From positions 4,836,001-4,900,000 of the forward strand of contig OZ241831.1 of assembly GCA_965202585.1 (NCBI GenBank): a DNA stretch of 64,000 bases, in the 5' to 3' direction. Positions 3,001 through 6,000 of the stretch are shown here, piece after piece (positions within the stretch are counted from its first letter, which is position 1; each line of letters opens with the position of its first letter). The DNA is from Thalia democratica (Eukaryota). The position numbers are program-made.

Positions 3001-6000
3001 ATTTCAAATAAGATTTCTTCAGTCTTAAATGTTTATATTATATGATATTATTATTTGATCTTAAAAATAACTTTAAAATAGTGATGTATAGGTTAACTTT
3101 AATTTAAACTTTTAAACATGTTTTTACAATAAACACTTTATTAAGTAATTATTTATAGCTAGATATTTATAAAACCGTTATACATAACTACAAATTTGTA
3201 TCATACCCATACCAGTTTTTACCAACCTTATTCTGAAGATGTGCTAAACGGACTTAATCAATAGACTTTCGAACTTTTTAAGAATGAATGGTTCATGATT
3301 AAACTTTTTAATAAAAACCAGTACCAAAACAACATTTTTTAAAAAGTAAATTTTGTTATAGAGAAAAATTTATCAATATAGAAATAGTTCCATTACATGT
3401 TGCCACATTTCATTACAATTCTGCTTAATCTTTTGAATACTTCCAACTCGGAAGCTTTTTGATTTTTTATTGCTAAAAAACAAAAAGCTTTATCTAATAG
3501 CAGCTCTAGTACGTGATGCCTTGTTAATGCTGAGCAAACATCGCTGTGCAAATAAGCGAATAACTAGAAGTTTTAGAAAACTAAAACTAAAACGAAGATC
3601 AAGAAAAGCTGCTTCATCAGAAATAAAATACGCGCGTTCACCACGGATGCGACGGGCAAGAAGTTTGTTACAAAATTTCTACAAACAAAAAAACAACTGA
3701 AACTTGTTACGCATTTGAAAATTCTCAGCATATACAGGAATATATATATAGGAAGCTAAAAATTGAACAAATACATTAAAACGCTGCTACAGCTCATAAT
3801 TCTTCAACAAAACATCTTCACTACGGGGGAAATCCCGCGTGCTCGTTTTCACCTTGAATGCGGCGGGCAAGATGGATGTCCTTCTCCATGATGGTCACTC
3901 TATTGGCATGGATGGCGCACAGGTTGGCGTCTTCGAAAAGCGCCACCAAGTGAGCTTCAGCAGCTTCTTGCATGGCCATGACTGCGCTGCTCTGGAAACG
4001 AATGCCCCTGACAAGGTTCAGGTCCTGGGCGACTTCACGAACGTTGGAAGGGCAGTTTGCGGATCAAGAGCTCAGTGGACTTCTGGTAGCGAAGGATTTC
4101 ACGGAGAACCACGGTACCTGGGCGGTAACGGTAGGGTATTTTGACACCTCCAGTGTTTGGTGCCCTCTTGCGGTCTGCCTTGTACGCAAGTTGCTTGCGG
4201 GGAGCTTTTCCCCCAGTTGAAATGCGCGGTTGCTGCTTGGTACAAATCATTTTTAACTTTAACTAACCTATAATGAAAAATGAAAAACTTTACAATTTTT
4301 TTCAAAAAATAGTTTAATTTTTCTGTAGCAATATTGTAAAATCATGTTAGTAAGTAAATTTATCAAACATGACAGCAGGGTTTTAACTGATTTTTTTTTA
4401 CACCAGAGTTTTCTAAATAGGGCAATACCGCCCCTAATGTACAGTTCTAGCAAAATAATAAATAGAAAAGAATATCTTTTTAAGATATAAACAAGTTAGC
4501 CTTTTTAGTAATTTTTAAGTTTAGGGTATCGAAAGGAATAAAGTTCATTTCCTGAATGAAAGTCCTAAAAATAAAATAAATAAAGTTTCTTAAATGAACA
4601 TCTCTCGATACTTATAGTTGACTTTTCTTGCTTAAAATTAGACTAGCTATTTGAAACTTCTTTGTAAAATAATAGAATAAACAAATATGGAAGTGTTTAA
4701 TAATCAAGTAAAACAATATATGTTAATAAATTCTAATTAATAAAGTTACTACGCTACATGGCTCGCTAGCTTGTTTTAAAGCTTTGAAATTATTAGTTCT
4801 ATTTACTAACTTCAGTGAATTTTTTTTTTAAACAAACATTGTCAGTTAACAAAAAAAAAAATGCTTACCGCTAGAAGCTAGATGAATTACTTACCTTAAA
4901 GCAAAGTTGCAATAACTTTTTTAATTTGTACGCGTATTTCAAATGCGTATGCGATTAGCTAATTGAAATATTAATAAAAAACTATGCCATAAAGAAAAAC
5001 AGCAAACATAAATATACTTAGGGTTACAAAACACTTTCAAGTTTGTTTAAACTTCAAAATCCAATTTATCTGGAAGTTTATTGTTGACCGACCCCGCCAT
5101 TCATAAAAATAATTTTTCTACCAAAGTCATTTGCAGGAAATAGGAAAACTTATAGCTGAACTCCCAGTATATTTTTTCTTGATTTAATTAAATGCAAAGC
5201 ACCGCAGTTCTTTTACAAAACATGAATCTTGGTAATTAAATTACTTACATCTCTTTTTTTAATTTAAATTCATTTTAACTTATAATTTTGACAAAAACAT
5301 AGTTTATACGGTTTGAAAAGCTATAAAAGCTAGTCGAAAAAATTTCAAGTGTCTATTTTCATCAAAAAAAAAAAGCATCTTACACTAAATATAAGTTGAT
5401 AGCAACAATTTTCTTTGTTAAAAGTTGAGTTTTTATGTGTAAACTAAACTAACTAATTCATTATAATTTATTTTTACTTTATAAAACTGAAAATATGCTG
5501 ATTTTAATTATAACTTTGCGGCTTGAACATTACATTAAAACTTGAATAATAAATTAAATATTTAAAAATAAATCTGAATAAATATATCGCATAAATCTCA
5601 AATAGACTGGTTCTTTTTTTCATTTATAACTAGAACTTTGTTTTATTTTTTTGAATGAGATGAATACCCAAGTAGTTTAGAGTTTTTATAGTTCTAGTCT
5701 AAATATAATGAAATTACACTATTTTCTATTAGTCTCTGTCTAGAATCCATCTATAAAATTAAAAACTTTTTAGTATTAACTAATTTAGTATGACTTTGTT
5801 AACAAAATTACACTAAAAGATTGTTAAGTATTATATTATTTTTTTTAAAGTTTAAATTTTTATGCATAAAAACAGTGAAGCATAAATTTAAAAATGTTTA
5901 GTTTACTATAGAAAATAGATATGTACTTTGAAAAGTAGTTAAATTAAAATAAATTGAAAAAACTAGGAAATAGGTTTTTTTCTTTTTTATAGCAACAAAA

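What the first reader, a model, noticed from the sequence alone, without database searches (positions are those of the whole stretch)
3821..4250. Histone H3 variant with an H3-type tail but a lengthened loop 1 and C-terminal extension, broken by one frameshift
Seen: loop 1 is [12 protein letters not shown] versus canonical QD-FKTDL-RFQ (+2 aa, K79 lost). Other changes are EAAEA, T107A and K115N, plus a tail ENEHAGFPP, and most histone-fold changes are conservative. The N-tail has K9I, S28R and K37I but keeps K4, K27 and K36. Residues 87-90 are SAVM (canonical-H3 type). Established: a longer loop 1 and EDA are CENP-A-like traits, but Q68 and F84 are retained here. Inference: this derives from a previously functional lineage-specific H3 variant rather than from simple decay of canonical H3. 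The single -5 nt lesion at 4040 could be recent or an assembly error.
Basis: partly seen in the sequence, partly recalled or inferred. Interest (0 to 1): 0.65.

Follow-up and report, generated by a model that had tools for sequence, protein, structure and literature searches.

The report
Decayed copy of divergent H3 variant
This is a broken histone H3 gene copy, but its odd features are inherited from a small, unnamed family of divergent H3 variants with a lengthened loop, of which one intact relative exists in public data.

Summary
On the minus strand, 3821-4250, lies an H3-type gene in two frames, split by a 5-nt deletion that removes L70. It has a 2-residue longer loop 1 (LNLVRGI), an H3-type tail, SAVM at 87-90 and a read-through C-terminus. 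It is 105/135 identical to canonical animal H3.

New evidence: one intact 136-aa protein in the public set (P0001, unnamed record) shares the same loop, [12 protein letters not shown]31, M92, A96, H99, A102 and A107. That is 14 shared derived residues plus the insertion. The two are sisters in a tree, with 98/95 support, or 93/87 with the loop columns removed. So the distinctive traits come from a variant lineage, not from decay of this copy.

The window copy itself is dead:
- It carries the frameshift.
- Its stop is lost. A 211-nt-offset tandem duplicate of the gene's 3' end still encodes the canonical LARRIRGERA, and P0001 lacks the extension.
- It has no histone 3' stem-loop.
- Its private replacements (R2C, K37I, R52L, P121E and others) look like random mutation.

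P0001's private fold changes are conservative (P about 0.01), which hints that the family is or was functional. It is not a CenH3. The organism was not identified. Interest is moderate to low.

The parts
4041..4250 (-). 5' part of the H3-like gene: ATG (4248-4250) to R69, with an H3-type N-tail and alpha-N/alpha-1 start. Derived residues are I1, C2, Q6, P7, I9, Y22, D25, R28, N31, I37, Y39, V47 and L52.
   Evidence: translation. Pfam Histone, 36.3 bits; aligns with residues 2-70 of solved H3 chains, E = 6.1e-30.
4038..4046 (-). The break. A 5-nt deletion at CAACGT|TCGTGAA removes L70 and shifts the frame. Frame A runs into TGA at 4035-4037.
   Evidence: P0001 and canonical H3 read FQRLVRE at this point.
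3824..4042 (-). 3' part of the gene in the second frame: V71 through the histone fold (alpha-1, loop 1, alpha-2, alpha-3) and the read-through tail.
   Evidence: Pfam Histone, 80.6 bits. E = 3.6e-25 to solved H3.2.
4001..4021 (-). Loop-1 segment LNLVRGI. It is two residues longer than the FKTDL of canonical H3, loses K79 and contains an Arg-Gly pair. It is identical in P0001.
   Evidence: (alignment with a 2-residue gap).
3821..3847 (-). Rearranged C-terminus. NEHAGFPP plus TAG stands where canonical H3 has RA plus stop. This change is private to this copy.
   Evidence: P0001 ends RGA. The downstream duplicate keeps GERA.
3702..3799 (-). 3' flank of the gene that is repeated downstream. No histone stem-loop is found in it.
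   Evidence: flank-only local alignment, 2 of 1000 shuffles reach the score; no stem-loop.
3520..3668 (-). Tandem partial duplicate of the gene's 3' end, offset by 211 nt. Bases 3631-3660 encode LARRIRGERA, the canonical H3 C-terminus, followed by TAT instead of a stop and then by flank similar to the gene's own flank.
   Evidence: tblastn 10/10 identity, E = 0.24 for the whole window, same strand, 160 nt below the gene's stop; repeat D1, 3637-3668 against 3848-3879, 78%; for the coding part 0 of 1000 shuffles reach the score, for the flanks 2 of 1000.

Best explanation
The sequence is a pseudogenised, solitary copy of a lineage-restricted, divergent histone H3 variant.

Origin (inferred). The variant lineage arose from a canonical replication-coupled, animal-type H3, since SAVM is kept at 87-90. 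Before the window copy and the protein P0001 separated, the lineage acquired:
- a 6-nt in-frame insertion and rewriting of loop 1 (LNLVRGI, with K79 lost and an Arg-Gly pair gained);
- tail changes T6Q, A7P, K9I and A31N;
- conservative alpha-2 changes L92M, S96A, Y99H, G102A and T107A.

Likely role of the family (inferred). Such a protein would still pair with H4 and enter nucleosomes. It would have an altered H3-L1/H4-L2 DNA-contact surface and no K9 or K79 methylation sites.

State of the window copy (shown). It no longer encodes this protein:
- a 5-nt deletion splits the frame at L70;
- the stop and last codons are rearranged;
- the 3' end was partly duplicated in tandem;
- no histone 3' stem-loop is left;
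- its private replacements look like unselected mutation.

Shown: the anatomy, the lesions, and the shared derived characters and sister relation with an intact ORF. Inferred: that the family is or was functional, and the chromatin consequences.
For: Anatomy and lesions:
- Translation and break.
- H3 identity: (Pfam), where all 60 listed solved matches of each piece are H3 chains or H3 chimeras.

Shared ancestry with P0001:
- P0001 is the best of 31 candidates. Its sequence has the identical [11 protein letters not shown] and [11 protein letters not shown].
- In the three-way comparison over 133 columns there are 14 shared derived residues plus the 2-residue insertion, 10 window-only, 14 P0001-only, and 4 where all three differ.
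- Tree of 40 H3-like rows: window + P0001 have 98/95 support (980 of 1000 bootstrap trees), or 93/87 (928 of 1000) with the loop columns dropped. Stem length is 0.077 and the tips are 0.11 and 0.14.

Decay of the window copy:
- No Rfam histone stem-loop at E <= 10 in 3000-5200, and none in the whole window.
- The stem-loop consensus scan is not above chance: 92 matches against 113 expected, none in the 3' flank.
- The downstream duplicate keeps the canonical C-terminus.
- Window-private replacements are no more conservative than random single-base changes: all sites n=14, mean BLOSUM62 -0.64 against -0.40 expected, P = 0.74; fold n=7, P = 0.26-0.30.

Hints of function in the family:
- P0001's private fold changes: n=13, mean 0.77 against -0.32 expected, P = 0.009-0.012.
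- Stem fold changes: n=10, mean 0.50, P = 0.06-0.08.
Against: - Only one relative with the loop was found, and it is an unnamed singleton on a 1051-nt contig. Its DNA, organism and expression are unknown.
- Protein sets hold only open frames, so finding an open copy is biased.
- An open frame is weak evidence. Given 32 missense changes, a neutral copy escapes nonsense mutations with probability 0.13-0.24.
- The P = 0.01 result would not survive correction for the 9 tests per model.
- The two tips are about equally long (0.11 and 0.14), as expected if both copies evolve at the same, possibly neutral, rate.
- Residue changes were polarised against an animal canonical H3 taken from a psyllid record (P0032). 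The organism's own canonical H3 was not available.
- The frameshift could not be checked against reads.
Confidence: 0.68

Rival explanations
1. This is an ordinary old pseudogene lineage. A canonical H3 copy died long ago and accumulated the shared changes neutrally. It was then duplicated, or inherited by two species. P0001 is just another dead copy whose frame happens to be open. No functional variant ever existed.
For: - Tail changes on the stem are radical: n=4, mean BLOSUM62 -1.75.
- The tips are of similar length in the broken and the open copy.
- Escaping nonsense mutations by chance is not rare, at 0.13-0.24.
- There is no stem-loop.
- The copy sits alone in AT-rich DNA, with no other H3 in the window.
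- Protein sets are biased towards open frames.
Against: - The loop change is an in-frame 6-nt insertion kept in both copies.
- P0001 has no frame-breaking indel over the stem plus its own tip.
- Fold replacements are conservative on the stem (P = 0.06-0.08) and on the P0001 tip (P about 0.01), but not on the window tip.
Confidence: 0.27
2. The window gene is intact in the organism and functional. The 5-nt gap is an assembly error, and the long C-terminus is a real feature of the protein.
For: - Apart from the break, both frames are open from ATG to TAG.
- GC3 of 0.58-0.65 is still like that of neighbouring exons and far above the flanks at 0.25-0.27.
Against: - The gap is not in a homopolymer or a simple repeat.
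- The extension is absent from P0001, and the adjacent duplicate still encodes the canonical end.
- Private changes hit residues that are otherwise invariant in the 24-row alignment or in canonical H3: R2C, R52L and P121E.
- No stem-loop is found.
Confidence: 0.06
3. It is, or was, a centromeric H3 (CenH3/CENP-A).
For: - Loop 1 is two residues longer and holds an Arg-Gly pair, as does the human CENP-A 'RG loop' (abstract of PMC4441053 in the listing).
- S96A and T107A.
Against: - The glutamine, the phenylalanine and the RVTIM threonine, whose absence marks CenH3 (passage of PMC4359364), are all present.
- The N-tail aligns with H3 over 69 residues.
- It is 78% identical to canonical H3.
- In the tree the pair sits at the canonical H3 node.
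Confidence: 0.02

Closest known systems
Canonical replication-coupled animal H3 (H3.2/H3.1)
   Same: - The H3 tail is alignable from residue 2.
- K4, K27 and K36 are kept, with SAVM at 87-90 and Q68 and F84 present.
- 105 of 135 residues are identical.
- The adjacent duplicate fragment still encodes the canonical C-terminus.
   Different: - About 30 replacements.
- Loop 1 is two residues longer, without K79.
- K9 and R2 are lost.
- No 3' stem-loop.
- Solitary rather than clustered: no second H3 in the window. Other histone classes were not formally searched.
- The frame is broken.
P0001, an unnamed 136-aa H3-like protein in the public protein set (a singleton)
   Same: - Identical loop 1 and [11 protein letters not shown].
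- N31, M92, A96, H99, A102 and A107.
- 107 of 135 residues identical.
- Sister in the tree.
   Different: - It is intact, with no C-terminal extension (it ends RGA).
- It has 14-18 private changes of its own, mostly conservative in the fold.
- Its organism, DNA and expression are unknown.
H3-derived extra variants reported in holocentric insects: the pea aphid 'putatively nonfunctional H3-derived variant' and a dragonfly H3-like transcript (Drinnenberg et al. 2014, PMC4359364; passages read)
   Same: They are of the same kind: an additional, lineage-restricted H3-like gene that groups with canonical H3 rather than with CenH3. One of them was judged non-functional.
   Different: Their sequences are in figure supplements that I could not see, so identity with this family is untested. 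The window's organism is unknown.
CENP-A / CenH3
   Same: Loop 1 is longer and holds an Arg-Gly pair. Alanines stand at 96 and 107.
   Different: The diagnostic absences of Q, F and T are not met. The tail is H3-like. Identity to H3 is far higher than that of CenH3s, whose usual identity range is recalled and was not measured here.
Lineage-specific H3 variants born from H3 duplicates, such as mouse H3mm variants, H3.6 and testis H3t (names seen among solved chains; their history is recalled)
   Same: They are recent, taxon-restricted H3 paralogues with scattered replacements. Some were first annotated as pseudogenes.
   Different: As far as I recall, those differ from H3 by a few residues and keep the loop-1 length. 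This family has about 24% divergence and an insertion.

Membership tests
Histone H3 family (Pfam PF00125 Histone) | Histone-fold match above the curated cut-off | tested here: met
   80.6 bits (3' piece) and 36.3 bits (5' piece) against a cut-off of 26.4.
Histone H3 family (Pfam PF00125 Histone) | N-terminal tail alignable with H3 (ARTKQ...[11 protein letters not shown]) | tested here: met
   residues 2-70 align without gaps to solved H3.1/H3.3 chains, E = 6.1e-30.
Functional H3 gene | One uninterrupted reading frame with the stop in the canonical place | tested here: not met
   a 5-nt deletion at about 4040-4046, and the stop displaced by 8 codons compared with the canonical alignment.
Replication-coupled canonical H3 gene | Conserved 3' stem-loop downstream of the stop | tested here: not met
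   Rfam at E <= 10 over 3000-5200 gives no histone stem-loop; none in the whole window; a recalled consensus with up to 3 mismatches gives 92 matches against 113 expected, none in 3400-3820 on the minus strand.
Replication-coupled canonical H3 gene | S/A-A-V-M at 87-90 rather than the H3.3-type residues (criterion recalled) | tested here: met
   SSAVM is identical to solved H3.2.
Replication-coupled canonical H3 gene | Near-invariant protein sequence | tested here: not met
   105 of 135 residues identical to canonical H3.
CenH3 / CENP-A | Extended loop 1 (criterion quoted in PMC4359364) | tested here: met
   two residues longer.
CenH3 / CENP-A | Absence of the conserved glutamine, phenylalanine and threonine (positions 69, 85 and 118 in PMC4359364) | tested here: not met
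   the Q of PFQR, the F of RFQ and the T of RVTIM are all present. T107 is replaced by A.
CenH3 / CENP-A | N-tail not alignable with H3 (criterion recalled) | tested here: not met
   the tail aligns over 69 residues.
CenH3 / CENP-A | Groups with known CenH3s in a tree | not tested
In one search the pair attaches at the canonical H3 node.
New H3 variant family (window copy + P0001) | Shared derived loop 1 LNLVRGI plus Q6, P7, I9, N31, M92, A96, H99, A102 and A107 | tested here: met
   Sister relation.
New H3 variant family (window copy + P0001) | Purifying selection or expression of at least one member | tested here: inconclusive
   P0001 fold changes are conservative, P about 0.01 uncorrected; an open frame is weak evidence. 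No DNA for P0001 and no RNA data.

The most novel reading that the evidence does not exclude
The window copy and P0001 mark an undescribed, fast-evolving H3 variant family in an AT-rich, probably animal, lineage. Its nucleosomal H3 has a two-residue longer, Arg-Gly-bearing loop 1, as CENP-A has, and lacks the K9 and K79 methylation sites while keeping K4, K27 and K36. It is functional in at least one genome and is undergoing birth-and-death turnover, and the window holds a dead member. Such a variant could serve a germline-specific or chromosome-segregation-related chromatin role.
Probability: 0.45. Interest if true: 0.55.

Novelty: new member of a known kind. Interest (0 to 1): 0.36.

Why it matters
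H3 is among the most conserved proteins, so lineages that tolerate about 24% change and an insertion in a DNA-contacting loop are uncommon. They usually mark specialised chromatin, such as centromeres or the germline. This locus gives no working gene. With P0001, however, it defines a variant family that can be looked for in the source genome and its relatives. If an intact, expressed member exists there, its loop-1 Arg-Gly bulge and the loss of K9 and K79 make clear, testable predictions. If none exists, this is one more solitary histone pseudogene, and only an annotation note.

Tried and rejected
**Organism.** It was not identified.
- The two Atlas look-ups were uninformative for taxon (WD exon; myosin TH1 exon).
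Its best hit was 84% over 83 residues to an unnamed 123-aa fragment, and the next was 29%.
- Three cluster look-ups followed. One search gave 0 names. In one search, 0 of 6 window ORFs were in the collection. One search returned only generic WD40 names, from a chytrid, an alga and a bacterium.
- Rfam on the whole window gave 0 matches, and the tRNA scan gave 0.

**Search coverage for H3.**
- No exhaustive search was run with the H3 pieces. That library collapses everything above 50% identity, so a 78%-identical variant would be hidden behind canonical H3.
- The search with P0001 as query was swamped by canonical and tandem-fused H3. There were 8000 candidates and 120 were listed. None of the 7 fetched has the loop. 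A window-like intact protein scoring like canonical H3 could lie below the listing.
- The 'longer' search gave 17 of 42 candidates. None of the 10 fetched has the loop.

- My first bootstrap count gave 0 of 1000. This was a rooting artefact, because the trees were written with the window row at the root. One search corrected it.
- One search failed on the strand format and was redone.
- One search failed on a term that was too short and was redone.

**Structure.**
- The AlphaFold model of P0001 is of middling confidence: mean pLDDT 69.6, pTM 0.40.
- It shows the H3 helices at 46-57, 65-83, 89-116 and 124-133, with the insertion drawn as an extension of alpha-1.
- All 50 listed Foldseek matches are chains of nucleosome or H3-H4 complexes at 64-77% identity. 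This adds nothing beyond the sequence.

**Other readings considered.**
- Retrocopy: there is no poly-A tract, and the 3' duplication includes flank, so the events are at the DNA level. This was not formally tested.
- An intron at the break is impossible, because sequence is missing there rather than added.

**Not run.** Complex prediction was not used, because no H4 from this organism was at hand.

Full report
**What is there.**
- The window has no N. It is very AT-rich, at 22-43% GC per 2 kb.
- I do not take it for human. It carries intron-rich genes whose exons have GC3 of 0.6-0.86 against roughly 25% GC between them.
- On the minus strand, from ATG at 4248-4250 to TAG at 3821-3823, lies a GC-rich island (52-57% GC; flanks 24.5-27.4%). 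It reads as histone H3 in two frames.
- Frame A (4041-4250) gives [70 protein letters not shown].
- Frame B (3824-4042) gives [73 protein letters not shown].
- At the junction, CAACGT|TCGTGAA, one base stands where six are expected. This is a 5-nt deletion that removes L70. It does not lie in a homopolymer.
- Both pieces pass the Pfam Histone cut-off.
- The best solved relatives of both pieces are canonical H3.1, H3.2 and H3.3 chains. All 60 listed in each are H3 chains or H3 chimeras.
Identity to canonical H3 is 105 of 135.

**The key new result.**
- A word-indexed search of the 5.8-billion-protein set with the 3' piece gave 31 candidates.
- The best is P0001, a 136-aa intact H3-like protein from an unnamed record. 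It is a singleton on a 1051-nt contig.
- It has exactly the same [11 protein letters not shown], the same [11 protein letters not shown] and APNT, and [23 protein letters not shown].
- In a three-way comparison with canonical H3 over 133 columns:
  - 14 residues are derived and shared, plus the 2-residue insertion;
  - 10 changes are private to the window;
  - 14 changes are private to P0001;
  - at 4 sites all three differ.
- In a maximum-likelihood tree of 40 H3-like rows, 13 short rows were left out and are listed. The two are sisters with 98/95 support (980 of 1000 bootstrap trees).
- With the loop columns removed the support is 93/87 (928 of 1000).
- The pair hangs on the canonical H3 node. 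The stem is 0.077 and the tips are 0.11 and 0.14.
- No other protein with this loop was found:
  - among the 31 near-length candidates (11 fetched);
  - among the 42 longer candidates (10 fetched);
  - among the 7 proteins fetched from the 120 listed for P0001 as query.
- The listing was swamped by canonical H3 and is no proof of absence.

**The window copy is dead.**
- Beside the frameshift, the C-terminus is rearranged.
- About 160 nt below the gene's stop, on the same strand, 3631-3660 encodes LARRIRGERA, the exact canonical H3 end.
- The DNA similarity to the gene's own 3' end runs on into the flank. This is repeat D1, offset by 211 nt. In local alignments against shuffles, 0 of 1000 reach the score for the coding part and 2 of 1000 for the flanks alone.
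- So the gene's 3' end was duplicated in tandem while it still ended canonically. The ENEHAGFPP tail arose afterwards, and P0001 does not have it.
- The alignments do not settle whether this was a 2-, 6- or 8-nt insertion. In each reading the original stop is lost.
- No histone 3' stem-loop is detectable, either with Rfam or with a recalled consensus.
- No second H3 lies in the window, so the copy is solitary.
- Its private replacements include R2C, K37I, R52L and P121E. As a set they are no more conservative than random single-base changes to the same codons (P = 0.74 for all sites, 0.26-0.30 for the fold).

**Was the family functional?** The evidence is indirect.
- The loop insertion is in frame and is kept in both copies.
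- P0001 is open throughout.
- P0001's 13 private fold replacements are conservative: mean BLOSUM62 0.77 against -0.32 expected, P = 0.009-0.012.
- The 10 shared fold replacements lean the same way (P = 0.06-0.08).
- Against this:
  - there were nine tests per model, and none survives correction;
  - a neutral copy with 32 missense changes escapes nonsense mutations with probability 0.13-0.24;
  - protein sets list only open frames;
  - the two tips are about equally long.
- I put the functional-family reading near one half and the plain old-pseudogene-lineage reading near one quarter.

**Comparison with known kinds.**
- It is H3 by fold and by tail.
- It is not a CenH3. Of the criteria quoted by Drinnenberg et al. 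2014 (PMC4359364, passages read) only the longer loop 1 is met. The glutamine, the phenylalanine and the RVTIM threonine are present, and the tail aligns with H3.
- The Arg-Gly pair in a two-residue longer loop recalls the CENP-A 'RG loop' (abstract of PMC4441053 in the listing). This is a resemblance only.
- The same eLife paper reports extra 'H3-derived' variants in pea aphid (judged putatively non-functional) and in a dragonfly. They group with canonical H3, so they are of the same kind as this one.
- Their sequences are in figure supplements that I could not see, so identity is untested.
- The nomenclature paper PMC3380720 (passages) and the review PMC4584325 (passages) gave no usable criteria.
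- A full-text search for lineage-specific H3 variants with loop-1 changes and pseudogenes (22 papers, 15 listed, titles and abstract starts only) showed nothing that matches this family. That does not show the family is not in print.

**Structure.**
- An AlphaFold model of P0001 built from a 24-row alignment has middling confidence: pLDDT 69.6, pTM 0.40.
- It shows the H3 helices, with the insertion drawn as an extension of alpha-1.
- Its 50 listed Foldseek matches are all chains of nucleosome or H3-H4 complexes.

**Left unchecked.**
- The organism (searches gave no taxon).
- The DNA and context of P0001.
- Raw reads and expression.
- Exons of neighbouring genes were searched one by one.
- That SAVM marks animal replication-coupled H3, and that CenH3 tails are unalignable, are recalled and not tested here.

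**Verdict.**
- The locus is a decayed member of a real but barely sampled divergent H3 variant family.
- It is a new member of a known kind. Interest is moderate to low unless an intact, expressed member is found in the source lineage.

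Noticed in passing
window 3520-3668 (-): A tandem partial duplicate of the H3-like gene's 3' end. It still encodes the canonical LARRIRGERA, followed by TAT instead of a stop, and shows that local rearrangement took place after the gene arrived here.
   Followed up: yes
window 32590-44461 (+): An intron-rich class-I myosin gene. At least six exons match Pfam Myosin_head or Myosin_TH1, and the TH1 exon matches solved myosin-Ic. 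The introns are about 0.3-5 kb long and about 25% GC.
   Followed up: partly
window about 12335-24009 (-): A large WD40-repeat gene, possibly NWD1-like (weak HTH_NWD1 hit, E = 0.0038). It evolves very fast. The 274-aa exon at 13934-14755 has one 84% match to an unnamed 123-aa fragment, and the next best match among 1.8 billion representatives is 29%.
   Followed up: partly
window 6333-7208 (+) and 9394-9831 (+): Two GC3-rich ORFs (GC3 0.72 and 0.83). By eye they share a Tyr/Asp-rich stretch, GLPP, a long Arg/Lys run and AVQV near the end. The first has no Pfam match. They may be paralogues of an unknown family.
   Followed up: no
window 10293-11384 (+): A 364-codon open frame with a run of KKGHG-type repeats. 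It was not in the protein collection as an exact sequence.
   Followed up: no
window 3452-3490: A near-perfect 16-nt inverted repeat (I14, 94% complementary, 7-nt loop). It drew weak microRNA-like Rfam hits far below the gathering score and is probably an AT-rich chance hairpin.
   Followed up: no
whole window: There is an extreme compositional contrast. Exons have GC3 of 0.6-0.86, while introns and spacers are 22-30% GC. No tRNA or Rfam family occurs in 64 kb.
   Followed up: partly
P0153-P0157 and P0002/P0005: The searches also surfaced other unnamed divergent H3-like proteins with long or rewritten N-tails. They form well-supported clades of their own in the tree (100/100 and 100/99) and are unrelated to the window's family.
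   Followed up: no
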